Made by a program: the position numbers and the translations under genes. Below, piece after piece: positions 7,179-48,425 of a stretch of DNA of 64,000 nt. This stretch comes from Felixounavirus LF82P5. Below the pieces are notes generated by a model. That model was not told where the DNA came from and ran no database searches. It was given only the letters and a program-made list of their open reading frames with translations. Positions within the stretch are counted from its first letter, which is position 1; every line of letters begins with the position of its first letter. The stretch is from sequence record OZ035800.1. One strand, written 5' to 3'.

Positions 7179-8282
7179 TTACTCATAATCCCTAATAACT
7201 AGCCCTACAGGAAACTGTAAAGAACCTTTACGAGTCATCTTCTGGAACTGAACAGTTAAAGGTTTCCCGATAAACTCTTCAGGATGTTCAGCAAGATACT
7301 GTTTCTTCTCGTGTGTAGTTTTCCATGAAACATCTACAAAGACGTTAGGAAGAGTCTCTACAACGAACTTACCATGACCACGCTTATCGGTCTTTACACC
7401 AGTCACTTTAAACTCTTCAGTGTGCATCTTCTTGTGCTTAATCAAGAAGTATGAACGGTGACAACACTCATAGAAGGAGTCTTCAGAGATTGAACGGTAC
7501 ATTGCACCTTCAAACTTAGCTTCAACCCACTTATCATGAGCTTCATCAAACTCTTCCCAAGAATTTACACGACGAGATTTAACAGGAACAACTTTACAGC
7601 CGTCTCTAAAGTCATTCAATGGTGAAGTCTCAATAATATCTCTACGCTCAGGCCACGTTTTAGTACTGTCACAGATATCATACCAGTAGAACTTAAGTAA
7701 GTGTCTGTCAGGATTGTCTTCATTTTTAATCATAGAGACAATATCTTCTAAGTCCCACCCATGAGCATAAATCTCACCATCAAATTCATCAACATCTTTA
7801 TGGAGCCTCAACATTGCCATAATGTCAGGTATTAGCTCAGTAGGAATTTTATAAATAGTGTTCTCACGAGAATATGCTGTAAATACACTGCCAATGCTTA
7901 AGTGTCTTGAAATTCTACAACGTACACCATCAAGCTTCGGTTGGGCATCAGCAGGGAATTTCAAATACTTTGCATGGCTAACCTTTGCAGTATCATGAGC
8001 AAGCTGTACACCTACCTTCTCAGTATTCTGTGCAGACTCTTTTGTGTAAGCATAACCTTTGCGGTCAACTTGCTTTTTATACTTAGCAGCAACTTCAAAG
8101 AGGGCTTGCTGTTCAGCATTACGCTCATTCTTTTTACCGATGTTTTTAGGTTCTGCTGTATACTCTTCAAACATCATCTTGCCATTTTCTTTACCGTAGG
8201 TTGTAATAACTTTGTCACCTACAGCAACACATGACCAGACGTTAAAAGAGCCGTCTTTATTTTGTTTGTACAGAATTGTCAT
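7179..8282 (-). CDS. ATP-dependent DNA ligase
   Basis: 367 aa; adenylation motif I KLDGVRC; size like T7-type ligases. Confidence 0.75.
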   Translation of the reverse strand: MTILYKQNKDGSFNVWSCVAVGDKVITTYGKENGKMMFEEYTAEPKNIGKKNERNAEQQALFEVAAKYKKQVDRKGYAYTKESAQNTEKVGVQLAHDTAKVSHAKYLKFPADAQPKLDGVRCRISRHLSIGSVFTAYSRENTIYKIPTELIPDIMAMLRLHKDVDEFDGEIYAHGWDLEDIVSMIKNEDNPDRHLLKFYWYDICDSTKTWPERRDIIETSPLNDFRDGCKVVPVKSRRVNSWEEFDEAHDKWVEAKFEGAMYRSISEDSFYECCHRSYFLIKHKKMHTEEFKVTGVKTDKRGHGKFVVETLPNVFVDVSWKTTHEKKQYLAEHPEEFIGKPLTVQFQKMTRKGSLQFPVGLVIRDYE

Positions 8283-9387: not shown

Positions 9388-9903
9388 TCAACTTAGTTTT
9401 GCAAACTCTCCGTGGAGTTTAATAGCAGCTTCACAGTAAGCTTTATGGGCTTCTTCTTCTGTTGTGTATGTTCCTATATGTATGGTCTTGCCATTATGGT
9501 TAATCTGGGCTATCCACTTACCAGACTTGCTTCTACTTGTGCCTTTTAAGTTTTTTGATGTTCTAGGTTGTCTCCTATTAGACATGTTCTGCTCTTTTGT
9601 GGCCTCTCTTAGATTGTCCCAAGCGTTATTCAAACCATCTCCATCTTTGTGGTCAATGTGTTTATCAGGCCACTTACCTGTCATCCAGAACCAAGCAATT
9701 CGGTGATTGCCTGTCCTGTATCCTAAAATCTGTGTGTGCATATACACACCAGACCTTGTGCGCTTAATTGCTCCGGCTTGGCTTCCAATAACCACCCTAC
9801 TACTATGTGGAGGTCTGCCAATCCATGTTAAGACCCCTGTTTCGGGGTCATAATCTAACCAAGACTTTAACTGTTCATGTGTGAATCCACAATCTCTCAT
9901 CAA
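9388..9903 (-). CDS. HNH homing endonuclease with AP2 DNA-binding domain
   Basis: HNH motif HIDHKDGDGLNNAWDNLREATKEQN; C-terminal AP2-like GKWIAQINHNGKTIHIGTYTTEEEA; 4-nt overlap with the polymerase gene. Confidence 0.8.
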   Translation of the reverse strand: MMRDCGFTHEQLKSWLDYDPETGVLTWIGRPPHSSRVVIGSQAGAIKRTRSGVYMHTQILGYRTGNHRIAWFWMTGKWPDKHIDHKDGDGLNNAWDNLREATKEQNMSNRRQPRTSKNLKGTSRSKSGKWIAQINHNGKTIHIGTYTTEEEAHKAYCEAAIKLHGEFAKLS

Positions 9904-24400: not shown

Positions 24401-24455
24401 TTTTAACAACTATGAGGGTCGTAAAAGACCCTCTAAAAATAACTTTGGAGAGAGT

Positions 24456-24713
24456 ATGAAGGACTTAATAGCAAATCATGAGTGGCCAATTTATCTGCTC
24501 TACAAACCTCGGAAAACGTTGTACTATGTAAGTAGTACAGATATGATGATAAAACAAAATGATGACTCATGGGTCGATGGTGTGTCATACATCTCTACAG
24601 CAGATGGTAAAATCTATGCAAGACCATATGAGATGTTCAATGAAGAAAATTGGGAAGTTCTAGACCGAAAACAAGCCTTAGAAATGATAAAGAAAGGAGA
24701 AATCACACTATGA
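24456..24713 (+). CDS. hypothetical small protein between nrdA and nrdB
   Basis: Track ORF trimmed to ATG with GGAGAG Shine-Dalgarno; ATGA overlap with nrdB start. Confidence 0.4.
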   Translation: MKDLIANHEWPIYLLYKPRKTLYYVSSTDMMIKQNDDSWVDGVSYISTADGKIYARPYEMFNEENWEVLDRKQALEMIKKGEITL

Positions 24714-25783
24714 TTAACCAACACCCAATCTTTTTAGGTGGTGAGAGAAAGACATTTGACTCACTTAATAAACACTACCCAAAAATCTTTGAGCTTTATA
24801 AACAACAAAAAGCACAAGATTGGTCAGAAGATGAGTTCCCTTTTGAACAATCACGTCTTGATTTTGAGAGTGTCCCAGCATCAATGTCAGGTGTAATGCT
24901 TGAGATTCTTAAGTGGCAGTGGGAAGCAGATACCCAAGTTGCTAAGAGCTTGGCATTCGCCTTTGCACCATTCATCTCTGATGACATCTATGCAACTGCA
25001 ATTATGAAGCAGTCTGAGATTGAAAACCTACATGCTCTTACTTACTCAGAGATTGTAAGGCAATGTATTAAAAACCCTGAAACAATCTTAGATGAGATTA
25101 ACCAGAATGTTGCTGTGCAAGACCGATTAAAAACTGTGAATCGTGTTCTTGAAGAATTACTGGATGAAGGCATAAACTATCGTCTCAGTTATGTGCGTGA
25201 CTCACTTCTGGACAAAGACCCATTACACTTCCATAAAGTGATTCTAAAAGGTCTATTTGCAGTGACTGCACTTGAAGGTATTTCCTTCATGGCATCCTTT
25301 GCATGTACCTTTGCACTTGATGCTCAGGATAAATTTCAGGGTATTGCTCAAGCTGTCCAGAAAATTATGCTTGATGAAATCCTTCACACTAAAATTGATA
25401 TTGAAGTTTTAAAAGAAACTTTAAGAGATGATGAGTGGCAGAAAGCTTTTCAACAAATTCTTCCAGAGATTAAAGTAATCTTAGATGAAGTAGTTGAAAG
25501 TGAAGAGAAATGGTCGTATTATATCTTCTCCGAAGGACGTGCTGTAGTTGGCTTAAATACAAAGCTTCTTCATGAGTGGGTTTACTATAATGCTGCCCCA
25601 CTGTATGATATGTTTGGAATTCCCAGAGATTTTGTAGCTCCTAAAGAACCACCTTTGAAGTACATGATTAAGAAGATGGAAATTGATAAAGAGCAGAATG
25701 CTAATCAGGAGCAACAGAACGGTGCGTACCTGTTGAATACTGTTGTAGATGATTTGAATAGTGGATTTTTAGAGGTTCCTTAA
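24710..25783 (+). CDS. nrdB: ribonucleoside-diphosphate reductase, small subunit
   Basis: Start moved to ATG (MINQHPIF) with AGGAGA Shine-Dalgarno; class I R2-like sequence. Confidence 0.85.
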   Translation: MINQHPIFLGGERKTFDSLNKHYPKIFELYKQQKAQDWSEDEFPFEQSRLDFESVPASMSGVMLEILKWQWEADTQVAKSLAFAFAPFISDDIYATAIMKQSEIENLHALTYSEIVRQCIKNPETILDEINQNVAVQDRLKTVNRVLEELLDEGINYRLSYVRDSLLDKDPLHFHKVILKGLFAVTALEGISFMASFACTFALDAQDKFQGIAQAVQKIMLDEILHTKIDIEVLKETLRDDEWQKAFQQILPEIKVILDEVVESEEKWSYYIFSEGRAVVGLNTKLLHEWVYYNAAPLYDMFGIPRDFVAPKEPPLKYMIKKMEIDKEQNANQEQQNGAYLLNTVVDDLNSGFLEVP

Positions 25784-26025
25784 TGACTTATGTAATTTAC
25801 TCCAAAACTGGATGCCCTCAGTGTGAGACTGCAAAGAATTTTGCAAAAGCTCGTGGTATTGACCATGTTGTGAGAATGTTAGGGCAGGACTATGAACTAT
25901 CAGACCTGATGGATATTGCACAGATGCCAGTGCGTCAGATGCCATTCATCATGAAAACTGATGGGCAAAACCTAAAGCCTGTTGGAACGCTACAGAATTT
26001 TATGGCAGAGGTGAATAATGCTTAA
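25783..26025 (+). CDS. nrdH: glutaredoxin-like protein (NrdH/NrdC-like)
   Basis: 80 aa with CPQC redox motif near the N-terminus; sits between nrdB and nrdD. Confidence 0.7.
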   Translation: MTYVIYSKTGCPQCETAKNFAKARGIDHVVRMLGQDYELSDLMDIAQMPVRQMPFIMKTDGQNLKPVGTLQNFMAEVNNA

Positions 26026-26224
26026 ACGCCTTTGGGAAGGTTTGGTTGTTGATGCACCAGCTATTGTGATTGGTATGCTTATTGTTAACCTATTTACTGA
26101 CTTTGAACAAGGTTCATTGTTTGGAGCTATGTTACTATGGGTTATCTTCGAAATATTAGAGATACAGTTAGGTATCACTGAAAAACTAAGAGAACTCTTT
26201 TCGAAGTTTTCTAAAAAGATTTAA
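26018..26224 (+). CDS. small membrane protein
   Basis: 68 aa with two hydrophobic segments. Confidence 0.35.
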   Translation: MLKRLWEGLVVDAPAIVIGMLIVNLFTDFEQGSLFGAMLLWVIFEILEIQLGITEKLRELFSKFSKKI

Positions 26225-26231
26225 AATGAAA

Positions 26232-26253
26232 GGGTCTCTTCGGAGACCTTTTT
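26232..26253 (+). terminator. rho-independent terminator
   Basis: GGGTCTC-TTCG-GAGACC hairpin followed by TTTTT. Confidence 0.6.
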
Positions 26254-26272
26254 AGCATGTAAAGGGGCAATA

Positions 26273-28417
26273 ATGAACAAAGTACAGATTATTAAAAAGA
26301 ACGGCTCACTTGAAGAACCTGATATCAAAAAAGTTTTAGCAGCAGTCACAAAGTCAGCTAACAGAGTTGGTTATAAAGAGCTTCCACCAGATGTTACTCA
26401 AGCTCTTGAGTCAGCATTTATGAGGATTCTGGTAAAGTCCACTAAGCAGAATAATTTGCTAATTTCTGTAAATGATATTCACAGTATTGTTGAGGGTGCT
26501 TTGGCAGAAGTCAATCACGAGATTTATGAGTCTTACTCAACATATAGAAATTACCGTAAAGAAGTTGCTCAAAATTGGGATGAGCTTTACCAGAAGACCA
26601 AAGATACACTCTTCTTAGGTGACCGAGAAAACGCTAATTTTGACAGCAGTTTAATTTCTACAAAAGGTTCAATTATTCGTGGTTATCTGACTAAAGAAAT
26701 CTTTAAACAGTACCACTTAACACCAGAGGAACTTGAAGCCATTGAAAAAGGGTTTATCTATATCCATGATTTAAGAGACCTAATTTTTGGTGGTATCAAC
26801 TGTTGCCTGTTTGACATTGGTAAAGTCCTGAAAGGTGGCTTTGAAATGTCTGGCATCGAATATTGTGAACCGAAGTCTGTACTGTCAGCCTTACAGGTTA
26901 TTGGTGATGTAGTTCTTTCAGCAACTGCACAGCAATTTGGTGGCTTTACTTTAGCAGAGATTGATAAGGTACTCATACCGTATGCTAAGAAGTCTCTACG
27001 CTATCATGCTGAGAAAGCAGCATCTTATGGTATTCCTAAAGAACATTACCACAATTATGTCATGGAGCAGCTACAGATTGAACTGACTCAAGGTTTCCAG
27101 TCACTTGAAATGAAACTAAACACTGTACCTTGTAGTCGTGGGGATTTTGCATTTACAACTTTGACATTTGGTTTACTTGATTCAGATATGTCCAATGAAG
27201 ATAACCGACTGCAATATATGATTGCAAGTACTCTCCTAGATGTTCGTATTAATGGACAAGGTAAGAGCAAGAAACCTGTTGTATTCCCTAAACTGGTTTA
27301 TATTTATGACCAGAAGAGACATAATGAGAATATCTGTCAAGGCCACCTGTACAGTAAAGCTATTGAGTGTTGCTCTAAAGCAATGTACCCAGATTTCTTA
27401 AGTGTGTCTGGTCATGGTGCTGTAGCAGGGGCTTTTGAGCGTTCTGGCAAGGTAATTTCACCGATGGGTTGCAGAGCTTTCTTATCCCCATATCTTAACG
27501 AGAATGGAGAAGAGTTCTACGTTGGTCGTGCTAATATTGGTGCTGTATCTTTGAACTTACCAATGATTTACCAGTATTCTAAAGAGAATGGTTTAGATTT
27601 CTGGAAAGAGCTTGATAAGTACCTAGAGATGATTCGTAGTTTCCACAAGAAACGTTACGAAATGATTGCTAATATGCCAGCAAGTTCTAACCCTCTTGCA
27701 TTTACACAAGGTGGTCTGTACAAAGGAACTAAGAAGCCTACTGACAAGGTTGGTTGGGATATTGTGAAGTCCTTCACAGCTTCTTTTGGTGTTACTGCGC
27801 TTGATGAGCTATCTGTTCTTGCTGAAGGTAAACGACTTCATGAAGTTGGAAGCTGTAGTTTTGCATACGATGTTCTGGCATACATCAACATGAAAACTGA
27901 AGAGTTTAAAAATGAAGATGGCTTCTTATATGCCGTCTATGGTACTCCAGCAGAATCACTTTGCGGAACTCAGTTAAAACAGTTCAGAGATATGTTTGGC
28001 GTTATCAAAGGTGTTTCTGATAAGGAATACTTTACAAACAGTTTCCATATGAATGTTGCAGCAGACATCTCACCATTTAAGAAGCAGGACTTAGAAGAGC
28101 CATTCTTCCATATCTGTAGAGGTGGCAGAATCCAGTATGTCAGGGTAGCTAACCCAGAAAACTTACCAGCACTTAAAAGCTGTATTACCAGAGGGATGTT
28201 GAAAGGTTTCTATCAGGGACTTAACTTTGACTTAGCAATCTGTGAACATTGTGGTAACAGACCAAAATCAGATGTTGAAGAGTGTGAAGTTTGTCACTCA
28301 CATGATATCTCTGTGATTAACAGGGTGTGTGGTTATCTTGGATGGACTAAGATTAAAGGTGAATCACGAATGAATGATGCAAAAATCGCTGAGATTCGTG
28401 ACAGAGTTTCTATGTAA
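26273..28417 (+). CDS. nrdD: anaerobic ribonucleoside-triphosphate reductase
   Basis: 714 aa; C-terminal glycyl-radical motif RVCGYLG and zinc-ribbon cysteines CEHCGN...CEVCHSH. Confidence 0.85.
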   Translation: MNKVQIIKKNGSLEEPDIKKVLAAVTKSANRVGYKELPPDVTQALESAFMRILVKSTKQNNLLISVNDIHSIVEGALAEVNHEIYESYSTYRNYRKEVAQNWDELYQKTKDTLFLGDRENANFDSSLISTKGSIIRGYLTKEIFKQYHLTPEELEAIEKGFIYIHDLRDLIFGGINCCLFDIGKVLKGGFEMSGIEYCEPKSVLSALQVIGDVVLSATAQQFGGFTLAEIDKVLIPYAKKSLRYHAEKAASYGIPKEHYHNYVMEQLQIELTQGFQSLEMKLNTVPCSRGDFAFTTLTFGLLDSDMSNEDNRLQYMIASTLLDVRINGQGKSKKPVVFPKLVYIYDQKRHNENICQGHLYSKAIECCSKAMYPDFLSVSGHGAVAGAFERSGKVISPMGCRAFLSPYLNENGEEFYVGRANIGAVSLNLPMIYQYSKENGLDFWKELDKYLEMIRSFHKKRYEMIANMPASSNPLAFTQGGLYKGTKKPTDKVGWDIVKSFTASFGVTALDELSVLAEGKRLHEVGSCSFAYDVLAYINMKTEEFKNEDGFLYAVYGTPAESLCGTQLKQFRDMFGVIKGVSDKEYFTNSFHMNVAADISPFKKQDLEEPFFHICRGGRIQYVRVANPENLPALKSCITRGMLKGFYQGLNFDLAICEHCGNRPKSDVEECEVCHSHDISVINRVCGYLGWTKIKGESRMNDAKIAEIRDRVSM

Positions 28418-41680: not shown

Positions 41681-42466
41681 ATGGGTATTGTAAAAATCAT
41701 CAATGGTGATATCTTTGCTGCATTTGATAAAGGTAAGTTTGACATCATTGGTCATGGTTGTAACTGCATGAACCTAATGGGCGCAGGTATCGCTGACAAG
41801 ATTTCTAAACTTTACCCAAAAGCATATGAGACCGATACAGAAGTTTATCTCTATGCAGGTGGTATAGGTCACAAACCCTGTGAGAATTTACTAGGTAATT
41901 TCTCTGTAGCACGCTTAAAACAAGGTCGTATAGCTAACCTTTACACTCAGCTTAAGACTGGTAAAGATGCCCGATACAGTGCTTTAGAGTCATCTTTGAA
42001 ACAGCTTAACAGATACTGTGAAGTTAATCAGTTGAAGAAAGTTGGTTTACCTATGATTGGTGCAGGTATCGGTGGACTTGACCCTCAAGCCATCACAGTT
42101 ATCATCAATCAGGTGATGAAGAGTGTAGATGTTTATCTGTATGTCTATGAAGGCGAGATGTACCACAAGTTACGCTCAGGTTGGAAGAACTACTGTGAAC
42201 CAGAATACTTTGCAGGTGTAGCAGTGTTCACAGATAACGCAGTTACCCTCTTCAGACGAAGAAAAGGTAAGATACATCAAAGTAACCCTCCGGTTGAAAA
42301 GATGTCTCTAAGTAACGCTCTAGTTACCCACCTGTCAAAGAGCAATCACAGAATTGCTGTAACATTTGGTAGTGATGCAGAAGCTTATATCTATGCAAGA
42401 ACTGATGAGGATATCGAGGCAATCTTCTCTTCACCAGAAGTTACCTTCTTAGACGCAAAGAACTAA
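41681..42466 (+). CDS. macro-domain protein (putative ADP-ribose-binding/hydrolase)
   Basis: N-terminal GDI...DII.HGCNCMNLMGAGIA and GLPMIGAGIGGL resemble macro-domain signatures (GDIT...VNAAN.LLGGGGV; FPAISTGVYG). Confidence 0.45.
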   Translation: MGIVKIINGDIFAAFDKGKFDIIGHGCNCMNLMGAGIADKISKLYPKAYETDTEVYLYAGGIGHKPCENLLGNFSVARLKQGRIANLYTQLKTGKDARYSALESSLKQLNRYCEVNQLKKVGLPMIGAGIGGLDPQAITVIINQVMKSVDVYLYVYEGEMYHKLRSGWKNYCEPEYFAGVAVFTDNAVTLFRRRKGKIHQSNPPVEKMSLSNALVTHLSKSNHRIAVTFGSDAEAYIYARTDEDIEAIFSSPEVTFLDAKN

Positions 42467-42539
42467 GAAACTCTGTAGGATATTCACAATAGCCTAAGCC
42501 TTTCTTATCTGGTAAATTTTTCAGGTAAGGAGGGCTTTT

Positions 42540-42561
42540 TCATTTTAGAATTGTGCAGGTA
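42540..42561 (+). repeat. iteron-like direct repeat R1
   Basis: TCATTTTAGAATTGTGCAGGTA; identical to R4. Confidence 0.6.
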
Positions 42562-42612
42562 GAGTTCTGTAGAGAAATCTGTAGAGAGAATTTTGAACTC
42601 CAAAGAGAAAAT

Positions 42613-42634
42613 TCATTTTCAAACTGTGCAGGTA
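42613..42634 (+). repeat. iteron-like direct repeat R2
   Basis: TCATTTTCAAACTGTGCAGGTA. Confidence 0.6.
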
Positions 42635-42651
42635 ATCTCCAAAGAGCTTTT

Positions 42652-42673
42652 TCATTTTCAAAACGTGCAGACC
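42652..42673 (+). repeat. iteron-like direct repeat R3
   Basis: TCATTTTCAAAACGTGCAGACC. Confidence 0.55.
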
Positions 42674-42696
42674 CCGCTCAGGTCGGGCAAGAAAAA

Positions 42697-42718
42697 TCAT
42701 TTTAGAATTGTGCAGGTA
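42697..42718 (+). repeat. iteron-like direct repeat R4
   Basis: TCATTTTAGAATTGTGCAGGTA. Confidence 0.6.
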
Positions 42719-42733
42719 GGTTTTTATAGACAG

Positions 42734-42772
42734 CCAGCCCAACCCCTCTCCCCCTCTTACTCCCCCTCTCCC
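42734..42772 (+). other. polypyrimidine (C-rich) tract
   Basis: CCAGCCCAACCCCTCTCCCCCTCTTACTCCCCCTCTCCCC, strongly out of character for a roughly 39% GC genome. Confidence 0.6.
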
Positions 42773-42894
42773 CAAAAGTCAAGAGAAAAATTTGTAGCGG
42801 ATTGAAAAATAATTCTTGATTTGCGTTCTGTTTTGTGGTAGTCGTGCGCACCCGTTTCATTACAGTTTTGCCAAAAATATTTTTAAAATTTTTA

Positions 42895-42986
42895 TTGACT
42901 CTTTGAACGTGGTTATCTAATATTTACATCAACGGGGAGGGAATGACCTTCCCCACTAAATAAAATCCTAAACTGGAGATTCAAAA
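42895..42986 (+). promoter_or_regulatory. promoter-hairpin-RBS cassette, copy 1
   Basis: TTGACT-17 nt-TAATAT, then GGGGAGGGAATGACCTTCCCC hairpin, then ...CCTAAACTGGAGATTCAAAA-ATG. Confidence 0.6.
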
Positions 42987-43175
42987 ATGGCATCAAGAAA
43001 AATTAAAGTTGGCGATGAGGTTAACATTAAGCACGAATACTCTTACAAAATGCTAACTATACGCTCTTATAAGGTTTATCAGGTGGAAGCTATCCACAAA
43101 GATAATACTTTTTCCTTAAAAGGGTATAGCGAACGTTTCCCTGCTGAACTCTTTGAGAAATGGAGCGCGAAATAA
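42987..43175 (+). CDS. hypothetical small protein
   Basis: 62-aa ORF driven by cassette copy 1. Confidence 0.5.
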   Translation: MASRKIKVGDEVNIKHEYSYKMLTIRSYKVYQVEAIHKDNTFSLKGYSERFPAELFEKWSAK

Positions 43176-43381
43176 TGCTTTACAGTCGCGAATTGATGGT
43201 TACAACTAACGTTAACACAAAGGCAAAACGTTTTTACATGCAAATCTGTGGCGTATGGTCCAGAATATCAGAAGCTGACTATTGCAACTATGTAGAAACA
43301 GCTATAAACTCTAATTGCTACCTTACAAGAAATACTAAAAAATTTACGAGACAGACAGCAATTTACTACTACGATAAATAA
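43175..43381 (+). CDS. hypothetical small protein
   Basis: Start at ATG overlapping the upstream stop (TAATG); 68 aa. Confidence 0.4.
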   Translation: MLYSRELMVTTNVNTKAKRFYMQICGVWSRISEADYCNYVETAINSNCYLTRNTKKFTRQTAIYYYDK

Positions 43382-43395
43382 AAAGTACTTTACAA

Positions 43396-43424
43396 GGGGC
43401 TTATAGTTCGATAAAGTAAGCCCC
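43396..43424 (+). other. intergenic hairpin upstream of conserved leader
   Basis: GGGGCTTA-13 nt-TAAGCCCC then the conserved leader ...CCTTAAACTAGGAGATTCAAAA-ATG; no T run. Confidence 0.4.
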
Positions 43425-43467
43425 AGATAAAGAGCTTTACACAATCCTTAAACTAGGAGATTCAAAA

Positions 43468-44010
43468 ATGAAATGCTATCACGGAACTACTCAAGAAAAT
43501 TTCCTCAACCTGATTAATAACGGTGATAAACCATCAGGCGCATGGAATTGTTCGGATATGGACGGCAATTTTTACGTGTATCCAGAAAATAAAATCTATG
43601 GCGACGATGAGGAAGAAATAGCATCAGAGGGCATTCAGCAAGCTCTAGGCAATGCCACTATCACCGCAGCTTTTCAGATGAAGACTCAAAATATTGTTAT
43701 CTTAGAACTCGATATTCCAGAGGATGAGCTAAATGATGATTATTCTTGTGATAATATGTCGAGTGTAGCAAGTTTTACAGAGTACTTTGATGTAAATTGG
43801 ATTAAAAAGGTCTATACAACAGAGTTTAACGCTATGTATTCACCTTTTTGTCTTCCTTCATTGGATAACCCAAATTTAAACTATCTTGATGAGTCTCTGG
43901 AGCTTCTTGCTAAAAGTGTTCAACAGTCGGACAGTATTCAGGTTTATTGTGACATCATGGATACACTGACAGGAAACATTGCAGAAGAGGATTTAAAGAG
44001 CTTTTTCTAA
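43468..44010 (+). CDS. hypothetical protein
   Basis: 180-aa acidic ORF with conserved leader and RBS. Confidence 0.5.
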   Translation: MKCYHGTTQENFLNLINNGDKPSGAWNCSDMDGNFYVYPENKIYGDDEEEIASEGIQQALGNATITAAFQMKTQNIVILELDIPEDELNDDYSCDNMSSVASFTEYFDVNWIKKVYTTEFNAMYSPFCLPSLDNPNLNYLDESLELLAKSVQQSDSIQVYCDIMDTLTGNIAEEDLKSFF

Positions 44011-44041
44011 AAACCTATGCAATCACCTTATAAACACTAAT

Positions 44042-44062
44042 CAGCCCCTTGTAGGGGCTTTT
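44042..44062 (+). terminator. hairpin (weak terminator)
   Basis: AGCCCC-TTGTA-GGGGCT followed by TTT. Confidence 0.35.
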
Positions 44063-44076
44063 AGAGGGCTTAAATC

Positions 44077-44310
44077 ATGCTTACAACCATTTACCTCATC
44101 CTTTCCATCTGTAATGGTCATTCATGTGATTTTAAAGGGCTTGAAGAGTTTACAGGAAGTAAAGAAAATGCTATTCAAGTTTGCCAGATAGCAAGACAAG
44201 ACTATCCCGCTAGTGATGATATACAATGTTACTTTAAGACAGAAGATGAAGACGGTATCTATTTTGACAGCGTAGATGGTCAGTATGAAATTATCATTGA
44301 AAAAGACTAG
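44077..44310 (+). CDS. hypothetical small protein
   Basis: 77-aa ORF. Confidence 0.45.
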   Translation: MLTTIYLILSICNGHSCDFKGLEEFTGSKENAIQVCQIARQDYPASDDIQCYFKTEDEDGIYFDSVDGQYEIIIEKD

Positions 44311-44401
44311 ACAAGCCTGATAAAAATCTGTAAATTGTCAATCAACGGGGAGGGAATGACCTTCCCCACTAAGTACAATCCTTAAACTAGGAGATTCAAA
44401 A
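44308..44401 (+). promoter_or_regulatory. promoter-hairpin-RBS cassette, copy 2
   Basis: TAGACA-17 nt-TAAATT, the same GGGGAGGGAATGACCTTCCCC hairpin, AGGAG RBS; -35 overlaps the upstream stop codon. Confidence 0.55.
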
Positions 44402-44743
44402 ATGGCTTATGTAACCGTAATTACCGATAAAGAAAATTCATCTTGGTCAACTCAAGTAAGTGATAAGATGTCACCTATGCAGTGCCTAAAATACTTTGAA
44501 CAGTGGAACAAAGGCGAGGACACAAGCCCCTTTCAAGTGATGCAGATTATCCATGTAGATAACGAAGGGAATAAAACGGTTTTAAATAGTGAGTACTACG
44601 CAAGCCGTTTTGAAACGAGAAGTAAAACAATGAAGCTTTTACGTGAATCCGGTTATGCCCATATCGCCGCGTTAATCTGGGATGACCTGCTAAAAAACCA
44701 ACGTATCAGCTATGTAAAACCTGAAAAAATATTCATCAGTTAA
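44402..44743 (+). CDS. hypothetical protein
   Basis: 113-aa ORF driven by cassette copy 2. Confidence 0.5.
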   Translation: MAYVTVITDKENSSWSTQVSDKMSPMQCLKYFEQWNKGEDTSPFQVMQIIHVDNEGNKTVLNSEYYASRFETRSKTMKLLRESGYAHIAALIWDDLLKNQRISYVKPEKIFIS

Positions 44744-44774
44744 TCAATAACTTACAAAAAACTTTTAAAAAAAT

Positions 44775-44796
44775 GTTGACAATACCCCTTGACATT
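44775..44796 (+). promoter_or_regulatory. tandem TTGACA module (third copy, divergent)
   Basis: GTTGACAATACCCCTTGACATT; same tandem -35-like architecture as 12659 and 56049. Confidence 0.35.
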
Positions 44797-44872
44797 GGTA
44801 ACTTTGTTCGAGGGGGTTTATCTAAAAGGGATTCACTTAAAAGATTCTTTATAGATAAGCTCAAAAAATTAC

Positions 44873-44966
44873 TTGCAATCAGCTATCAAAACAAGTAAAT
44901 TACTAATCAACGGGGAGGGAATGAACTTCCCCACTAAACAAAGCCCTTAAACTAGGAGATTCTAAA
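44873..44966 (+). promoter_or_regulatory. promoter-hairpin-RBS cassette, copy 3
   Basis: TTGCAA-17 nt-TAAATT, hairpin GGGGAGGGAATGAACTTCCCC, AGGAG RBS. Confidence 0.55.
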
Positions 44967-45497
44967 ATGAACAAGTTCAAAGCTATCAACTACATCCGTT
45001 CAAATGCTGTAATGTCTAAGCCTGTAAAAGATACATACGAATTTCGTTGTAATGGGGTACACTTTGCAACCATCACTAAGTCAGAAAACGGGGCTTATTA
45101 TGTACATCGTCGTAATGTTGCAACCGTTGTAGTCTCTCACTTTATGCAAGCTGTAGCGGAATTATTACCGTTATTCTTAGAGATTTACTTAAATGAGTGT
45201 AAAAACGTTCACAACCACGTTAAAAACCTTTTAAACGGTTATAAAATGGCTTATGAACGCTCTATCAAGTCACTAAACAAGTTTTACAATGCACCTGCAA
45301 ATACTGTTTCAATGGCTTATGATGTAAACGGTGAGTTAGTTAGTCTCTTTAAAGTGGAAGAGATTAAACTGTATAATTTACGTCCTAGTGGTTACTCTAA
45401 GACTCTTGGTGAAGGTTTAACGTTCAATATCAAGAACTTAGAAAAAACTTTAAAAGATATTGAAAAAGATATTGACGAGACACTTAAAAGTCTGTAA
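44967..45497 (+). CDS. hypothetical protein
   Basis: 176-aa ORF driven by cassette copy 3. Confidence 0.5.
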   Translation: MNKFKAINYIRSNAVMSKPVKDTYEFRCNGVHFATITKSENGAYYVHRRNVATVVVSHFMQAVAELLPLFLEIYLNECKNVHNHVKNLLNGYKMAYERSIKSLNKFYNAPANTVSMAYDVNGELVSLFKVEEIKLYNLRPSGYSKTLGEGLTFNIKNLEKTLKDIEKDIDETLKSL

Positions 45498-45563
45498 ATT
45501 GTCAATCAACGGGGAGGGAATGACCTTCCCCACTAAATAAAGTCCTAAACTGGAGTTATCAAG
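45472..45563 (+). promoter_or_regulatory. promoter-hairpin-RBS cassette, copy 4
   Basis: TTGACG-17 nt-TAAATT where TAA is the stop codon of the upstream gene; same hairpin; GGAG RBS. Confidence 0.6.
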
Positions 45564-45827
45564 ATGGAAAACGTAGAATTAACCACACTTTTACAAATTG
45601 CAACCGACAAAGAAAACGTAGCTTTATTTCACCGCATCGAAAGTGATTTGTTCAATGGTGAAATCATCAAAGAGTCTTACGAGGTTGTTGGATTCAAAGA
45701 TGGTAAAACATTTGGATTCTTTGACCTCGAAAAAGGCAACGCTGTTACAAAATATGATGTTTTATCTTGTGAGATTCTTACAAAATACAACGAAAAAAGG
45801 CTTGCAACATACGCTAATATGCAGTAA
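45564..45827 (+). CDS. hypothetical small protein
   Basis: 87-aa ORF driven by cassette copy 4. Confidence 0.5.
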   Translation: MENVELTTLLQIATDKENVALFHRIESDLFNGEIIKESYEVVGFKDGKTFGFFDLEKGNAVTKYDVLSCEILTKYNEKRLATYANMQ

Positions 45828-45893
45828 ATTACTAATCAACGGGAGGCGATAACCTCCCCACTAAATAAAACCCTTAAACTAGGAGATTCAAAA
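45802..45893 (+). promoter_or_regulatory. promoter-hairpin-RBS cassette, copy 5
   Basis: TTGCAA-17 nt-TAAATT (TAA is the upstream stop), variant hairpin GGGAGGCGATAACCTCCCC, AGGAG RBS. Confidence 0.55.
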
Positions 45894-46142
45894 ATGGCAA
45901 CTATCCGCGCTACTGTTAACGAGTTCGGTTTTTCCTCTCTGGATGTTAAATTTGACATTGCAGGCACTGATAACGCCTTTGAAATGGTGAAAGGTCTTAT
46001 CAGTCAGACCATCAAAGACTATAATCCTTCTGATGAGTTCTGGAAAGAAACAAAACAGGAAGTTCTCAAAGAGGGTTATTCTTATCACTATTGGGGTGAA
46101 AAAATTGTCTCTCTGTACTACGACAAAGAAGGCACTAACTAA
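45894..46142 (+). CDS. hypothetical small protein
   Basis: 82-aa ORF driven by cassette copy 5. Confidence 0.5.
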   Translation: MATIRATVNEFGFSSLDVKFDIAGTDNAFEMVKGLISQTIKDYNPSDEFWKETKQEVLKEGYSYHYWGEKIVSLYYDKEGTN

Positions 46143-46182
46143 ACGCCGCAGCGGGGCTAAATAGCCCCAGATACCTTTATAC

Positions 46183-46204
46183 AGCCCCTCATAGGGGCTT
46201 TTTT
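46183..46204 (+). terminator. rho-independent terminator
   Basis: AGCCCC-TCAT-AGGGGCT followed by TTTTTT; preceded by a second hairpin GGGGCT-AAAT-AGCCCC. Confidence 0.7.
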
Positions 46205-46205
46205 A

Positions 46206-47801
46206 CGTCTATCCAATCCTTATACAATCCCTTTCCCTTTCCTTTCCAGAATCTTATCAGACCTTAAAAACAATAACTCTATAGTCTACTCTATAACCCT
46301 TTATCAAATCAACTTAAATATAAGCCCATAACCCGAAAGGGAAGGGCAACCATTAAAACGCTCTATAAAGCTCTATAACAGCCTTATCAACCTAACTTAA
46401 GGGATTGCATTAACCTATCTTAAAAAGCTCTTTACAGGGCTTTATAGAGCCTTAAAAGAATCTTATAAGGGTGTAAGCTTTATCATCTCGTTAGCTATCT
46501 TGTGAATAACTAAAAAGGGCTATGAGATAGGAATCTATCGAATCCTATTGATAGTGTCTAAAAAGTATGTTATAGGGGCTATAAAGTTACTTTGAAGTAG
46601 CTTAAAAGTTACGTAAATGCTAGCCCCCTTAACATTCTCTTAACAAATTCTTAACAATCCCTACATAGTTATGCTTGTTAGCAACTTGTTAGCCCCTTGT
46701 TAAATCTCTGTTAAGACCACGTAAAAGCCTTGTAAGAGCCTTTGACATAGCCTTAAAAGCTCCTGTAAAGCCCTATAAAGAGCTTTCTTCATAGTTGGGG
46801 TGTAATTACTAGGAAGAGCCTTAAAAGAGCTTACAAGGAGCTATAGAGAGCTTTTAAGAGGTATGTTTAAAGAGTCACTAAGAGGGAAAGGGAACGATAA
46901 GAAAAGAGATAGTGACCATGTTAATAGCTTGTTAAAAAGATTAAATACTTGTTAGAAACTTGTTAATTATCTTAACAAAATAACTCTTTAAAATTAACTT
47001 GTTAGCTCTTGTTAGTCATCTGTTAAGCCTCTGTAAAGACTATTCAGCAACTGTTAAGAAACTGTTACAGCCTTGTTAGTTCTGTTAAGAATCTGTTAAG
47101 ACCTTTGAAGAGCTGTTAAGAAGATGTGAGAACTGTTAAGAGATTGTTAAGGATATTTTAAAATTTTGCAAAGTACTTGTAAGGGAGCTGTTAAGGGCTA
47201 CCAAGCAGATATACATCTTCTACAGATATTTTTGAGTTCCTTCAAAGACCCTAAAAAATGACTTGACAGTCCTATTTTATAAAAATTTTAAGATTCTGAA
47301 TAATTACCTATACAGTCTTTTAAAAATACAGGTAGAAACAGGTTTATAAGATACCTTGTTAGTACCGTGTTAGACCTTGTGAGATAAGGTCTGTAAAGAT
47401 ATTCCTGTTAAGTTTGTTAAAACAGTCTATATAGAGGCTTAGTAATACCTAGTGAACACCTATAGAGAGTGTCATAGCTTACATAGAGATTAAGAGGTGT
47501 ATAGGAGCTTCTAAGAGTGTGTAGAGAGATGGTTAAGATGATTGTATAGGTTGTTTAGAAGGCTTGTTAGAAGAGTGTTTAGATGGCTATTTAGAAGGGC
47601 TATACAGAGGGCTATTAAGACCACTAGATAGTTGCTAAGATACTATATAGTACTATATAACTATATAGAGAGTAAGATTAAGAAGGTTGTTAAGAAGGGT
47701 AGATATTTTGTTCACATATGATGGTGACCCAGAGGTTGGGACAACCGATAAAATTTTATAAAAATTAAAAAGCCCCCAATTAAGGAGGCTCTTAAGATAT
47801 T
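46206..47801. other. 1.6-kb repeat-dense region with no ORF of 60 codons or more
   Basis: No track ORF on either strand; dense short direct and inverted repeats (CTGTTAAG, CTTGTTAG, AGCCTTAAAAG, CTATAAAGAGC, TTTAGAAGG, ACTATATA). Confidence 0.6.
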
Positions 47802-48425
47802 TTAAATCAGTGTTTCCAGAACTGTCTTCAGTGATGACTTGGTTGTCTGATAAAAATGAGTAAATCCATTGTTGTTATCGAATATCTGCATCATGATATC
47901 ATCTCCCTTGATTGGGTACACTCGGATATCATAGTGAAAACCATTAAAGACACAAGAACCACTACAGAATGCACTAAAGTCAGCCACTGAGATGTACTCT
48001 TCATGACCTGTGATTTTTATACAGACACCCTTACTTGGTCTCTTAGGGTTGATATCTTCCATCACAGACATACTCTGTCCACCAAGAGATACCATAGTGA
48101 CCACTTTACGGTTCTTCTGTCTAAAGTACATCTTAACTTTCTGTAAAGTGTCTTCATAGAACGGATAAGACCTTTCTACAAAGATTCCTTCAAGTGGCTC
48201 TTTACCATTTTCAACTTCTCGGTTATGCCGTACTGCAAAGATAATTTGTTCGAACCAGTCAAGATTTTCTTCGGAGAGTGCTTCTCGAACATCACTCCAG
48301 TCAAGTACTAGGTAGTTACCTTCAACTTCTTTTAAGTTATCTTTTTCCATAGATATCACACCATTATCGTAAAACTTGATATTCTGGTACTGCGAATTTA
48401 TTACTATTGTTCTTGATGAGGTCAT
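47802..48425 (-). CDS. hypothetical protein
   Basis: 207-aa ORF, last gene of a compact minus-strand block. Confidence 0.45.
   Translation of the reverse strand: MTSSRTIVINSQYQNIKFYDNGVISMEKDNLKEVEGNYLVLDWSDVREALSEENLDWFEQIIFAVRHNREVENGKEPLEGIFVERSYPFYEDTLQKVKMYFRQKNRKVVTMVSLGGQSMSVMEDINPKRPSKGVCIKITGHEEYISVADFSAFCSGSCVFNGFHYDIRVYPIKGDDIMMQIFDNNNGFTHFYQTTKSSLKTVLETLI

What the first reader, a model, noticed from the sequence alone, without database searches (positions are those of the whole stretch)
42895..45893. Modular promoter, 5' hairpin and RBS cassettes driving an array of small ORFs
Five copies of a roughly 92-bp module: a sigma70-like promoter (TTGACT/TAGACA/TTGCAA/TTGACG-17 nt-TAATAT or TAAATT), then about 10 nt later a conserved hairpin GGGGAGGGAATGACCTTCCCC, then the leader ACTAAATAAA..CCTTAAACTAGGAGATTCAAAA and ATG. 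In three copies the TAA stop of the upstream ORF is the first triplet of the -10 TAAATT. The architecture recalls the promoter-early stem-loop (PeSL) shuffling cassettes described for T4-type phages, here with the stem-loop at the 5' end of each transcript. The small ORFs are all of unknown function.
Basis: partly seen in the sequence, partly recalled or inferred. Interest (0 to 1): 0.6.

Follow-up and report, generated by a model that had tools for sequence, protein, structure and literature searches.

The report
Repeated promoter-hairpin-RBS cassettes, Felix O1-like phage
A Felix O1-like phage places a near-identical ~95-base "promoter, RNA hairpin, ribosome-binding site" cassette in front of most small early genes of unknown function, and related phages have gained or lost these genes by recombination between cassettes, much like the PeSL cassettes known from T4-type phages.

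Summary
Five ~92-94-bp modules lie at 42895-45893, each with a sigma70-like -35, a 17-nt spacer, a TAAATT/TAATAT -10, ATCAAC, a G/C hairpin, ACTAAATAAA and an SD leader before ATG. The window is a Felixounavirus, and the modules sit in the small-ORF array between two intrinsic terminators. Across 143 unique copies from relatives, information peaks at an upstream A-tract, at TTG of the -35 and at T1/A2/T6 of the -10, while the spacer is uninformative. The hairpin starts 10 nt after the -10, keeps pairing in 96% of cells (G.U/G-C/A-U exchanges) and is never followed by a U-tract. A second cassette type (43382-43467) has its stem-loop between -35-like and -10-like boxes. Array content varies from 8 to about 19 ORFs between relatives. 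Two junctions are single chimeric cassettes, and paralogous cassettes evolve in concert. Mooglevirus has both types and Kolesnikvirus has related ones, but no T4-type phage shares the sequence. Best reading: PeSL-like early expression and recombination cassettes that arose independently in Ounavirinae. Promoter activity, start sites and the hairpin's role (5' stabiliser or attenuator) are inferred, not shown. I found no published description. This is a new member of a known kind, of moderate interest.

The parts
42496..42547 (+). Intrinsic terminator (counterpart of Felix O1 t13) that closes the upstream operon and marks the left edge of the array
   Evidence: 17-bp stem followed by a T-run. 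The sequence matches t13 in Table 2 of PMC3185647.
42880..42989 (+). Type 1 cassette M1: A/T-rich upstream tract, TTGACT-17-TAATAT, ACATCAAC, hairpin 42934-42954, leader, ATG at 42987
   Evidence: covariance model hit of 85 bits
42987..43381 (+). Two overlapping ORFans (62 aa at 42987-43175; 73 aa at 43160-43381)
   Evidence: phrog_15633 and phrog_5293, both of unknown function; no Pfam, PADLOC or PDB hit
43382..43470 (+). Type 2 cassette: TTTACA-17-TAAAGT with the stem-loop GGGGCTTA...TAAGCCCC (43396-43424) between the two boxes. As RNA it forms an extended imperfect hairpin spanning 43382-43439. The same leader follows, with ATG at 43468.
   Evidence: -24.3 kcal/mol, z = -5.5. Covariation in 88 unique copies. 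The loop keeps a TAnnnT hexamer at a fixed position across genera. The copy is a chimeric junction relative to phage XTG1.
43468..44010 (+). ORFan of 180 aa
   Evidence: phrog_3303, unknown function; no significant PDB match
44043..44063 (+). Internal terminator-like hairpin AGCCCCTTGTAGGGGCT followed by TTTT
   Evidence: (repeat family D19). Annotated as a terminator in phage Barry.
44077..44310 (+). ORFan of 77 aa; its TAG stop is the first triplet of the M2 -35 hexamer
44293..44404 (+). Type 1 cassette M2: TAGACA-17-TAAATT, hairpin 44347-44367, ATG at 44402
   Evidence: 95.6 bits
44402..44743 (+). ORFan of 113 aa
   Evidence: phrog_4318, unknown function
44773..44860 (+). Structured spacer with a weak promoter-like TTGACA-17-TAACTT and two hairpins; also a doubtful 41-codon ORF (44773-44898)
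   Evidence: -33.8 kcal/mol, z = -3.9. The ASO1A record annotates a promoter and a terminator at the equivalent place. ORF listed.
44858..44969 (+). Type 1 cassette M3: TTGCAA-17-TAAATT, hairpin 44912-44932, ATG at 44967
   Evidence: 92.5 bits
44967..45497 (+). ORFan of 176 aa. Its last 13 codons contain the M4 -35 hexamer and spacer, and its TAA stop is the start of the -10.
45457..45566 (+). Type 1 cassette M4: TTGACG-17-TAAATT, hairpin 45511-45531, ATG at 45564
   Evidence: 72.5 bits
45564..45827 (+). ORFan of 87 aa, absent from Felix O1; its TAA stop is the start of the M5 -10
45787..45896 (+). Type 1 cassette M5: TTGCAA-17-TAAATT, variant hairpin 45841-45859, ATG at 45894
   Evidence: 67 bits
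45894..46142 (+). Last ORFan of the array (82 aa)
   Evidence: phrog_4559, unknown function
46153..46205 (+). Type 2-like remnant (GGGGCTAAATAGCCCC-AGATA) followed by an intrinsic terminator (counterpart of Felix O1 t23); this is the right edge of the array
   Evidence: Table 2 of PMC3185647

Best explanation
The region is the hypervariable early-gene array of a Felix O1-like phage. Almost every small ORFan in it is preceded by a self-contained expression cassette that also acts as a patch of homology for recombination, making it an Ounavirinae analogue of the PeSLs of T4-type phages.

Proposed mechanism for the type 1 cassette. Host RNA polymerase with sigma70 binds an A-tract at about -45 to -40 (resembling a proximal UP subsite), a TTGACN/TTGCAA -35 and a TAAATT -10 spaced 17 nt apart. 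It starts transcription inside the invariant ATCAAC. The mRNA therefore begins 2-4 nt before an 8-bp G/C hairpin. An unstructured A-rich stretch follows, then a strong GGAG Shine-Dalgarno sequence 8 nt before AUG. At the 5' end the hairpin would shield the transcript from 5'-end-dependent decay by RppH and RNase E. In read-through transcripts from upstream cassettes the same hairpin sits between cistrons, where it could attenuate transcription or protect the upstream 3' end.

Because the cassettes are about 90% alike, homologous exchange between them deletes, inserts or replaces the genes they flank, and it also homogenises the cassettes themselves.

Shown here: the anatomy, the conservation pattern, structural conservation of the hairpin, the lack of a U-tract, the variability of the array, the chimeric junctions, concerted evolution, and distribution across the subfamily. 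Inferred: promoter activity, the position of the transcription start, and the hairpin's molecular role.
For: 1. Identity and context. The window is a Felixounavirus. The array lies between the counterparts of Felix O1 terminators t13 and t23.
2. Promoter signature. In 143 unique cassettes, detected without constraining the hairpin flanks, information peaks at the A-tract, at TTG of the -35 and at T1/A2/T6 of the -10. The 17-nt spacer carries about 0 bits, and at least six spacer families are unrelated.
3. Timing. Felix O1 RT-PCR shows array ORFs 16, 20, 21 and 22 peaking at 5 min and ORFs 14, 17, 19 and 23 at 25 min after infection (PMC3185647).
4. Hairpin. It always starts 10 nt after the -10. 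Pairing holds in 96% of cells in 97 distinct sequences. The wobble position reads G.U 74, G-C 14, A-U 6, and 0 of 500 shuffles reach the observed score. Genuine cassettes carry quite different stems at the same place: GGGAGGCGAUAACCUCCC, GGGGCAAG...GCCCC, GGGAAACAUCCC. The + sense folds better than the - sense.
5. Not a canonical terminator. None of the 143 copies has more than 3 T in the 10 nt after the stem, whereas true terminators in the same region have T-runs. A strong terminator placed after its own promoter would also defeat that promoter.
6. Plasticity. The array holds 8 ORFs here and about 10 to 19 in relatives. All eight ORFs belong to different PHROGs of unknown function.
7. Recombination. 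19 of 31 distinct homology breakpoints fall in cassettes, which occupy 19.8% of the array (p = 5e-7), and all 14 non-coding breakpoints do. The single Felix O1 cassette between F2 and F3 is M4 on the left and M5 on the right, with the crossover in GTAAATT. The window's type 2 cassette is a chimera of two XTG1 copies that lie 10 genes apart. "Empty" cassettes occur in relatives.
8. Concerted evolution. Leader and stem variants are genus-specific.
9. Breadth. The sequence occurs at 1,333 places in 245 phage records, all Felix O1-like. Both cassette types are present in Mooglevirus and related ones in Kolesnikvirus.
10. The architecture matches the published PeSL definition (PMC2839356).
Against: No transcription start site, promoter activity or RNA half-life has been measured for any phage of this group, as far as the searchable library shows.

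The hexamers match consensus at only 8-9 of 12 positions, and such matches are not enriched over shuffles in the region.

Many copies are orthologues or recent paralogues, and concerted evolution can mimic purifying selection. Covariation is modest (3 pairs with changes on both sides), and the alignment was fitted to the model's own structure.

Breakpoint enrichment is partly expected, because viable indels must break in intergenic DNA and cassettes make up 72% of that DNA.

In the type 2 cassette the stem-loop lies upstream of the predicted start, so it cannot be a 5' stabiliser there. By parsimony, the hairpins of both types might act on read-through RNA, as PeSL stem-loops do.

Hairpins of M1-type cassettes are weak in Mooglevirus-like lineages. 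Bas63 copies carry a C.U or U.U mismatch in mid-stem.
Confidence: 0.7

Rival explanations
1. The hairpin is mainly a terminator or attenuator (or a protector of the 3' end) for transcripts coming from the upstream gene, as demonstrated for PeSL stem-loops. The adjacent promoter simply restarts transcription, and the 5'-end position of the hairpin is incidental.
For: PeSL stem-loops reduced downstream lacZ expression about as much as rrnB T1. WebGeSTer called these hairpins terminators in the ASO1A record. The type 2 cassette's stem-loop is not in its own transcript, so it must act on read-through RNA or on DNA. The hairpin begins about 14 nt after the upstream stop codon in M4 and M5. M1-type hairpins, which follow a strong terminator, are the weakest in Mooglevirus-like lineages.
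Against: None of 143 unique copies has a U-tract, while genuine terminators nearby do. An efficient terminator at +4 to +24 would also abort transcripts from its own promoter. The hairpin sits at an invariant distance from the -10, whereas PeSL stem-loops occupy five different positions. M1 keeps a full-strength hairpin in Felixounavirus despite the terminator upstream.
Confidence: 0.3
2. The promoter-like hexamers are not used. The array is transcribed as one or a few long early transcripts from the first promoter, and the conserved hairpins with their A/U-rich flanks are RNA processing and stability sites, like the RNase III sites between the early genes of T7. Their similarity reflects duplication and gene conversion.
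For: Consensus matches are only 8-9 of 12 and are not enriched over shuffles. The type 2 cassette folds into a roughly 19-bp imperfect duplex with covariation, which resembles an RNase III substrate. ACUAAAUAAA is an A/U-rich single strand next to a stem, the kind of site RNase E cuts (general knowledge). Concerted evolution is evident.
Against: Conservation is highest at exactly the sigma70-critical positions (TTG; T1, A2, T6), with a fixed 17-nt spacing across at least six unrelated spacer families and an A-tract placed like a UP element. The loop of the type 2 hairpin keeps a TAnnnT hexamer 17 nt after TTTACA in five different versions across three genera. An RNA-only function would not predict either pattern. 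The type 1 stem (8 bp) is too short for RNase III.
Confidence: 0.12
3. The hairpin and its invariant flanks (ATCAAC...ACTAA) are the binding site of a phage or host regulator: a nut-like antitermination signal, a translational repressor site or the target of an endoribonuclease. This factor would control the early genes as a group.
For: ATCAAC, ACTAA and the 25-nt leader are more conserved than a bare promoter and SD would require. How Felix O1 times its transcription is unknown.
Against: Loop and stem sequences vary freely among genuine cassettes (AAUGA, GAUGA, CGAUAA, UAAUAA, GGAAAC, AAGAUAAA, AACA), which argues against sequence-specific recognition of the hairpin. No Rfam family matches the region. 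The conserved flanks can be explained by start-site and translation requirements plus homogenisation.
Confidence: 0.07
4. The elements work at the DNA level only, as miniature mobile or recombinogenic repeats (cruciform or site-specific recombination sites) with no role in gene expression.
For: Chimeric junctions, empty cassettes and tandem type 2 copies show that the elements recombine.
Against: Crossovers occur at different places (in the -10, the stem and the leader), so the exchange is homology-driven and not site-specific. The G.U to G-C to A-U changes and the better fold of the + sense point to an RNA structure. Every cassette ends in an SD and ATG at fixed spacing. No transposase or terminal inverted repeats are present.
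Confidence: 0.04

Closest known systems
PeSLs (promoter-early stem-loops) of T4-type phages RB49/phi1, T4/PST and KVP40/nt-1 (Arbiol et al. 2010, PMC2839356; Comeau et al. 2014, PMC4122927)
   Same: [quoted passage not shown] An AT-rich tract with a sigma70-like early promoter. A polyG/polyC stem-loop with G.T pairs. SD and start codon at the 3' end. Concentration in hyperplastic regions between unrelated ORFans. Recombination between copies creates indels with chimeric junctions. The type 2 cassette here has its stem-loop between the -35 and -10, which is the commonest PeSL subclass.
   Different: No sequence similarity and a different phage subfamily: no T4-type record matches. In type 1 the stem-loop has one fixed position, after the predicted start site, so it is transcribed from its own promoter; the nearest PeSL subclass places it just before the start. 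Promoter and terminator activities and mini-circles were shown experimentally for PeSLs, but nothing has been tested here. Here the leader itself is also a conserved module, shared by both cassette types.
5'-terminal stem-loop mRNA stabilisers (ompA and papA 5' UTRs; the leader of T7 gene 10). Emory 1992, Bouvet & Belasco 1992, Arnold 1998 and Bricker 1999, as listed in PMC3997798. The T7 example is from my own knowledge.
   Same: A stable hairpin within a few nucleotides of the predicted 5' end, followed by an unstructured A/U-rich spacer and a strong SD. The layout closely parallels the T7 phi10 promoter and gene 10 leader used in pET vectors.
   Different: The start site is predicted, not mapped, and no stabilisation has been measured. 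Here the element is repeated before many genes as a standard module instead of being specific to one gene.
RNase III processing hairpins between the early genes of phage T7 (from my own knowledge)
   Same: Structured intercistronic elements placed just upstream of each early gene's ribosome-binding site. The type 2 extended hairpin (about 19 bp with internal loops) is of comparable size.
   Different: The T7 sites do not contain promoters. The type 1 stem is only 8 bp long. No cleavage data exist.
Direct repeats and predicted regulatory features already recorded in Felix O1-like genomes
   Same: The 39-bp repeat (TTGACA-N17-TAAATTACACATCAAC) and the 57-bp repeat listed for Felix O1 are the promoter half of type 1 and the type 2 cassette. 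The ASO1A record annotates the same sites as 'promoter' and 'rho-independent terminator', and the Barry record as 'Repeat_01'.
   Different: Those records list isolated pieces. I found no paper that treats them as a cassette system, links them to array variability or compares them with PeSLs.

Membership tests
PeSL (promoter-early stem-loop cassette) | [quoted passage not shown] | tested here: met
   92-94 nt from the -35 to the ATG. Upstream stop codons lie in or just before the cassette.
PeSL (promoter-early stem-loop cassette) | [quoted passage not shown] | tested here: met
   Information profile of 143 unique copies: A-tract, TTG, 17-nt spacer, TAnnnT. Tested at the sequence level only.
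PeSL (promoter-early stem-loop cassette) | Promoter active with host RNA polymerase in vivo | not testable with these tools
   Only indirect support: array ORFs are expressed 5-25 min after infection in Felix O1.
PeSL (promoter-early stem-loop cassette) | Stable stem-loop, often polyG followed by polyC, with G.T pairs | tested here: met
   GGGGAGGG/CCTTCCCC folds at -15 kcal/mol; 96% of cells paired. The type 2 stem is also supported.
PeSL (promoter-early stem-loop cassette) | The stem-loop terminates or attenuates upstream transcription | not testable with these tools
   No U-tract in any of 143 copies. This argues against canonical intrinsic termination but does not exclude attenuation.
PeSL (promoter-early stem-loop cassette) | Located preferentially in hyperplastic regions, flanking dispensable ORFans | tested here: met
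   In this window the cassettes occur only in the array. Array content varies from 8 to about 19 ORFs. The ORFs belong to eight unrelated PHROGs of unknown function. Natural deletion variants show that the genes are dispensable.
PeSL (promoter-early stem-loop cassette) | Recombination between copies produces indels or replacements that leave a chimeric cassette | tested here: met
   Two junctions resolved to the base; breakpoint enrichment p = 5e-7; concerted evolution.
PeSL (promoter-early stem-loop cassette) | Excised cassette-plus-ORF mini-circles | not testable with these tools
   Requires inverse PCR on infected cells or virions.
PeSL (promoter-early stem-loop cassette) | Descent from, or sequence similarity to, the T4-type elements | tested here: not met
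   blastn of a cassette finds 245 records, all Felix O1-like, and no T4-type phage. This makes it an analogue, not a homologue.
5'-terminal stem-loop mRNA stabiliser | Hairpin within about 0-4 unpaired nt of the transcript's 5' end | tested here: inconclusive
   The hairpin starts 10 nt after the -10 in all copies. The usual distance from the -10 to the start site then predicts 2-4 unpaired nt, but no start site has been mapped.
5'-terminal stem-loop mRNA stabiliser | The hairpin lengthens mRNA half-life | not testable with these tools
   Requires rifampicin-chase experiments with and without the hairpin.
Intrinsic (rho-independent) terminator | G/C-rich hairpin immediately followed by a U-tract | tested here: not met
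   The 10 nt after the stem hold 1-3 T (mean 1.9) in 143 copies. The terminator scan does not call these hairpins, but it does call t13 and t23.
lambda-type nut site / sequence-specific RNA-protein hairpin | Conserved loop sequence recognised by the protein | tested here: not met
   At least seven different loops occur in genuine cassettes. No Rfam match.
RNase III processing site (T7 early type) | About 20 bp of largely double-stranded RNA | tested here: inconclusive
   Type 1 has 8 bp, which does not meet the criterion. Type 2 has about 19 bp with internal loops and covariation, which is compatible. No cleavage data.

The most novel reading that the evidence does not exclude
Ounavirinae independently evolved a two-class, subfamily-wide gene-cassette system. 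Its standardised 'plug-and-play' units (UP-like tract, sigma70 promoter, RNA hairpin, fixed leader and RBS) both express and mobilise early ORFans. One hairpin would serve two roles: a protective 5' cap on the cassette's own transcript, and a 3' protector or attenuator on read-through RNA. Exchange between cassettes, including between co-infecting phages, would be the main route by which these virulent phages gain and lose host-takeover or anti-defence genes. This would be convergent with T4 PeSLs and so point to a general design principle.
Probability: 0.3. Interest if true: 0.6.

Novelty: new member of a known kind. Interest (0 to 1): 0.45.

Why it matters
How Felix O1-type phages time and organise their transcription was stated as unknown in the genome paper, and these phages are widely used for Salmonella and E. 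coli typing, biocontrol and therapy. The cassettes give a concrete, testable map of likely early promoters and 5' UTRs for some 245 sequenced genomes. They explain why the small-gene array is the most variable part of otherwise collinear genomes. They show that the PeSL principle, in which regulatory cassettes double as recombination adaptors for ORFans, is not confined to T4-type phages. They also mark safe insertion and deletion points for phage engineering, and they offer a natural, compact promoter, hairpin and RBS part for E. coli and Salmonella.

Tried and rejected
1. Tetraloop variants. I first took GNRA and UUCG tetraloop hairpins from the IMG/VR pattern scan as evidence of selection on RNA structure. 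They turned out to lie in unrelated contigs, where the TAA of TTAATCAAC is the upstream stop codon and there is no promoter family or leader. About 20 chance hits are expected for an 18-nt pattern in a collection of that size (the collection size is my rough assumption). I withdrew this evidence.
2. Palindrome. TAAAG-NN-CTTTA in the type 2 cassette looked like a possible operator, but there is only one exact match in the window. The two half-sites are really the arms of an extended RNA stem.
3. Rfam. Nothing relevant in 42000-48000 at E up to 1.
4. ORF function. The eight ORFs hit PHROGs of unknown function and have no Pfam, PADLOC or meaningful PDB sequence match. I ran no further search on them.
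5. Hairpin role. I compared hairpin stability in M1-type cassettes (after a strong terminator) with internal cassettes to separate the 5'-stabiliser and attenuator models. The result is inconclusive (p = 0.91, n = 10 against 120, non-independent copies).
6. Literature. I searched for mapped start sites or any cassette description in Felix O1-like phages and found none.
7. Bas63 knockout data. The array is genes 98-111 (64.6-70.5 kb), at the edge of the reported non-essential block. The validated counter-defence genes (79, 80, 130) are not array ORFans, and I did not retrieve per-gene scores.
8. Consensus promoter scan. It shows no enrichment, so it was not used as evidence.

Full report
**What the window is.** The array region (42800-46200) is 100% identical to Felixounavirus LF82P5, and 252 phage records match it. 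The nrd gene block is 96-98% identical to LF82P5, Felix O1 and other relatives. In Felix O1 terms, the finding covers the small-gene array (roughly ORF14-23). That array lies at the end of the long rightward early/middle transcription unit, between terminator t13 (window 42496-42537 plus a T-run) and terminator t23 (46183-46199 plus TTTTTT).

**Checking the observation.**
- The five -35 hexamers start at 42895, 44308, 44873, 45472 and 45802. Each is followed by exactly 17 nt and then TAATAT (M1) or TAAATT (M2-M5).
- Ten nt further on, the last six being ATCAAC, comes the hairpin GGGGAGGGAATGACCTTCCCC. M3 has one substitution in it, and M5 has a shorter version (GGGAGGCGATAACCTCCCC).
- Then follow ACTAA-rich spacer, the leader CCT(T)AAACT(A)GGAG, eight nt, and ATG.
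- The hairpin core and the leader each occur 4 times at up to 3 mismatches, against 0.00 expected in shuffles. Neither occurs elsewhere in the 64 kb.
- The RNA folds are stable (-13.6 to -19.7 kcal/mol for the 63-65-nt leaders). They are better in the + sense because one stem position is a G.U pair.

Two details need adjusting. Only two solid ORFs stop in the TAA of the -10; the third is a 41-codon ORF with no SD. In M2 it is the -35 hexamer (TAGACA) that begins with the upstream TAG stop. A sixth copy of the leader, at 43446-43470, belongs to a different cassette type.

**Is the promoter part real?** The consensus score alone says little. The hexamers match at 8-9 of 12 positions, and the region has no more promoter-like sites than shuffles do (19 against 16.9). 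The comparative evidence is much stronger.

I collected copies from 55 IMG/VR loci and several GenBank genomes. I re-detected cassettes using only 'G/C hairpin upstream of the leader', which gave 143 unique cassettes. When these are stacked without gaps, information content peaks at four places: an A-tract at about -45 to -40, TTG of the -35, T1, A2 and T6 of the -10, and ATCAAC. The 17-nt spacer is near zero. At least six spacer families are unrelated in sequence. This is the pattern expected of promoters read by sigma70 holoenzyme, with something like a proximal UP subsite. A purely RNA-level or purely repeat-level element would not predict it.

Felix O1 RT-PCR places array ORFs 16, 20, 21 and 22 at peak expression 5 min after infection, and ORFs 14, 17, 19 and 23 at 25 min. 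That fits host-polymerase early transcription, but the data are coarse.

**The hairpin.** I built a covariance model from four copies. It recovered 238 hits, and the best 150 (97 distinct sequences) were aligned. On that alignment:
- 96% of cells form a standard pair.
- The wobble position reads G.U 74, G-C 14, A-U 6.
- The loop-closing pair reads G-C 74, U-A 3, C-G 1, U-G 1.
- No shuffle of 500 reaches the observed covariation score.

The sequences are closely related and the alignment was fitted to the model's structure, so this counts as moderate support.

More telling are the diverged relatives, Mooglevirus-like contigs and phage Michonne. They carry quite different stems at exactly the same position after ATCAAC: GGGGCAAGAUAAAGCCCC, GGGGUAAGCAAGCCCC, GGGAAACAUCCC and GGGGAGGGAAACUUCCCC. 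Loops vary freely, which argues against a sequence-specific protein site.

I withdrew one piece of evidence. The GNRA and UUCG tetraloop variants seen are in unrelated contigs and are generic intercistronic hairpins.

**What the hairpin is not.** None of the 143 unique copies has more than 3 T in the 10 nt after the stem (mean 1.9). The genuine terminators at the array's edges do have T-runs. So it is not a canonical intrinsic terminator, even though WebGeSTer called it one in the ASO1A record. Because it lies downstream of the predicted start of its own promoter, efficient termination there would also be self-defeating.

With the -10 ending 10 nt before the stem, the usual geometry puts the start at the C or A of ATCAAC. 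That leaves 2-4 unpaired nucleotides, which is the arrangement of known 5'-terminal stem-loop stabilisers such as ompA and papA (references listed in PMC3997798). It is also the arrangement of the T7 gene 10 leader (from my own knowledge).

A direct discriminating test compared hairpin stability in M1-type cassettes, which follow a strong terminator, with internal cassettes. It was inconclusive.

**A second cassette type.** The unit at 43382-43467 recurs 106 times in the loci collected up to that point. Its layout is TTTACA, 17 nt, then TAAAGT, with the stem GGGGCTTA...TAAGCCCC lying between the two boxes. AGATAAAGAGCTTTAC and the same leader follow.

As RNA it forms an extended imperfect hairpin (-24.3 kcal/mol, z = -5.5). 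The outer stem shows covariation: G-C 69 / U-A 9, U.G 80 / C-G 4 / U-A 4, and A-U 75 / G.U 12.

The loop is otherwise variable, yet it keeps a TAnnnT hexamer at the same position in five versions (TAAAGT, TATCTT, TATGAT, TAAGAT, TAGTAT) across three genera. [quoted passage not shown] In this type the stem is not part of the cassette's own transcript, so it must act on read-through RNA or at the DNA level. This keeps the attenuator reading alive for both types.

**The leader.** Both cassette types share CCU(U)AAACU(A)GGAG followed by 8 nt and AUG. Among 297 unique contexts only two forms exist: CCU-AAACU-GGAG (175) and CCUU-AAACU-AGGAG (122). There are no mixed forms. In effect, one U-A pair of a small helix that overlaps the SD (UCCU/AGGA) is present or absent on both sides together. 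This is suggestive of compensation, but the two sites are only 6 nt apart, so plain linkage is not excluded.

**Plasticity and recombination.** The eight ORFs fall into eight different PHROGs of unknown function. They have no Pfam, PADLOC or meaningful PDB match.

Gene-family maps show the array holding 8 ORFs here, about 10 in Felix O1 and 19 in LMP33. The differences are presence/absence or replacement within a conserved order.

Internal ends of long blastn alignments to the window's array form 31 distinct clusters. Nineteen lie in cassettes, which occupy 19.8% of the array (binomial p = 5e-7), and all 14 non-coding clusters do. Because cassettes make up 72% of the non-coding DNA, this enrichment alone is weak evidence for a cassette-driven mechanism. 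The junction structures are stronger evidence:
- The single Felix O1 cassette between the 176-aa and 82-aa genes equals the window's M4 up to ...TCTGTAAATT and M5 from ACTAATCAAC onward. The 87-aa gene is therefore gained or lost by an exchange inside the shared -10.
- The window's type 2 cassette equals the first type 2 copy of XTG1 on its left and the last copy on its right, which accounts for a 10-gene, roughly 3.6-kb difference.

Crossover points differ between events, so the process is homology-driven and not site-specific. 'Empty' cassettes, in which a leader and ATG are fused to the next cassette, occur in relatives, as do tandem type 2 copies.

Paralogous cassettes share genus-specific variants. 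Felixounavirus mostly has GGAGATTCAAAAATG and GGGGAGGGAATGACCTTCCCC. Mooglevirus mostly has GGAGAATCTAAAATG and GGGGAGGGAAACTTCCCC. This is concerted evolution.

**Breadth and relation to known systems.** A 112-nt cassette finds 1,333 places in 245 phage records. All are Felix O1-like, and none is a T4-type phage. Mooglevirus (Michonne, 65% identity in the flanking phosphatase gene) has about 7 type 1 and 10 type 2 cassettes in a 19-gene array. Kolesnikvirus (an Erwinia phage, 43% identity) has type 2-like units with compensated stems (GGUG...CACC), units with the stem-loop between TTGCAA and the -10, and its own leader.

The architecture meets the published definition of PeSLs in every feature that can be tested from sequence, but with no sequence relationship. 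I therefore file it as an independent member of that kind of system and not as a homologue.

Earlier work recorded only fragments: two direct repeats in the Felix O1 paper and 'promoter', 'terminator' or 'repeat' features in individual records. I found no paper that describes the system or links it to PeSLs. The library covers open-access papers only, so an earlier description elsewhere cannot be excluded.

**Verdict.** Still to be shown experimentally are promoter firing, the start-site position, and whether the hairpin stabilises its own transcript, attenuates read-through, or does both. The finding is of moderate interest: a known principle, newly documented in a second and practically important phage lineage, with clear experiments to settle it.

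Noticed in passing
window 42540-42714: Four copies of TCATTTT-NN-AA-NN-GTGCA (4 found against 0.07 expected) lie between the t13-like terminator and the first promoter of the array. The same fourfold motif (TTTTCATTTT-N6-TGTGCATAG) occupies the equivalent place in the distantly related Erwinia phage vEam_W_25 (L063, about 9810-10000). It is conserved across genera and may be a regulator-binding array upstream of the first early promoter.
   Followed up: partly
window 42735-42775: A C-rich polypyrimidine tract (CCAGCCCAACCCCTCTCCCCCTCTTACTCCCCCTCTCCCC) in the same gene-free stretch. The Erwinia phage has a shorter counterpart (CGCCCACCCTCCCCTCTACC).
   Followed up: no
window 46200-47800: A 1.6-kb gene-free stretch between convergent gene blocks. 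It holds 27 of the window's 92 YTGTTAR sites within 46640-47693, often 10-11 nt apart, along with AAAGCTCTATAA-type repeats and long imperfect inverted repeats. It looks like an iteron array and could be a replication origin or another protein-binding region. Relatives also have a large gap here.
   Followed up: partly
window 44773-44900: The unusually long spacer before module 3 folds strongly (-33.8 kcal/mol, z = -3.9) into a C4...G4 hairpin and a long A/U-rich hairpin. It contains a weak TTGACA-17-TAACTT, which the ASO1A record annotates as promoter plus terminator. This may be a third kind of cassette, or a decayed one.
   Followed up: partly
window 42965-42982 and the other leaders; 297 unique contexts in the related loci: The shared leader exists in only two forms, CCU-AAACU-GGAG and CCUU-AAACU-AGGAG, with no mixed forms. 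This amounts to co-deletion of one U-A pair in a small helix that overlaps the Shine-Dalgarno sequence.
   Followed up: partly
L062 (Citrobacter phage Michonne) about 7500-7521; one IMG/VR Felixounavirus locus: 'Empty' cassettes, in which a leader and ATG run straight into the next cassette. These look like scars of gene loss between cassettes.
   Followed up: partly
window 22166-28417 compared with 42800-46200: The window is 100% identical to Felixounavirus LF82P5 across the array but only 98.0% identical across the nrd genes. Either the source phage is a mosaic relative of LF82P5 or divergence is uneven along the genome.
   Followed up: no
L065 (Bas63 / JohannRWettstein), array genes 98-111: Bas63 type 1 hairpins read GGGG(C/U)GGGAAUGACCUUCCCC, which puts a C.U or U.U mismatch in mid-stem. 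This is an exception to the otherwise well-kept pairing.
   Followed up: no
L005/L010/L044, L031/L055, L036 (unrelated viral contigs): Intercistronic G/C hairpins with GNRA or UUCG tetraloops sit 5 nt after a TAA stop codon and 18-35 nt before the next start codon. They share no context with the Felix O1 cassette, but they show the same 'stop, hairpin, RBS' layout in other phage groups.
   Followed up: partly
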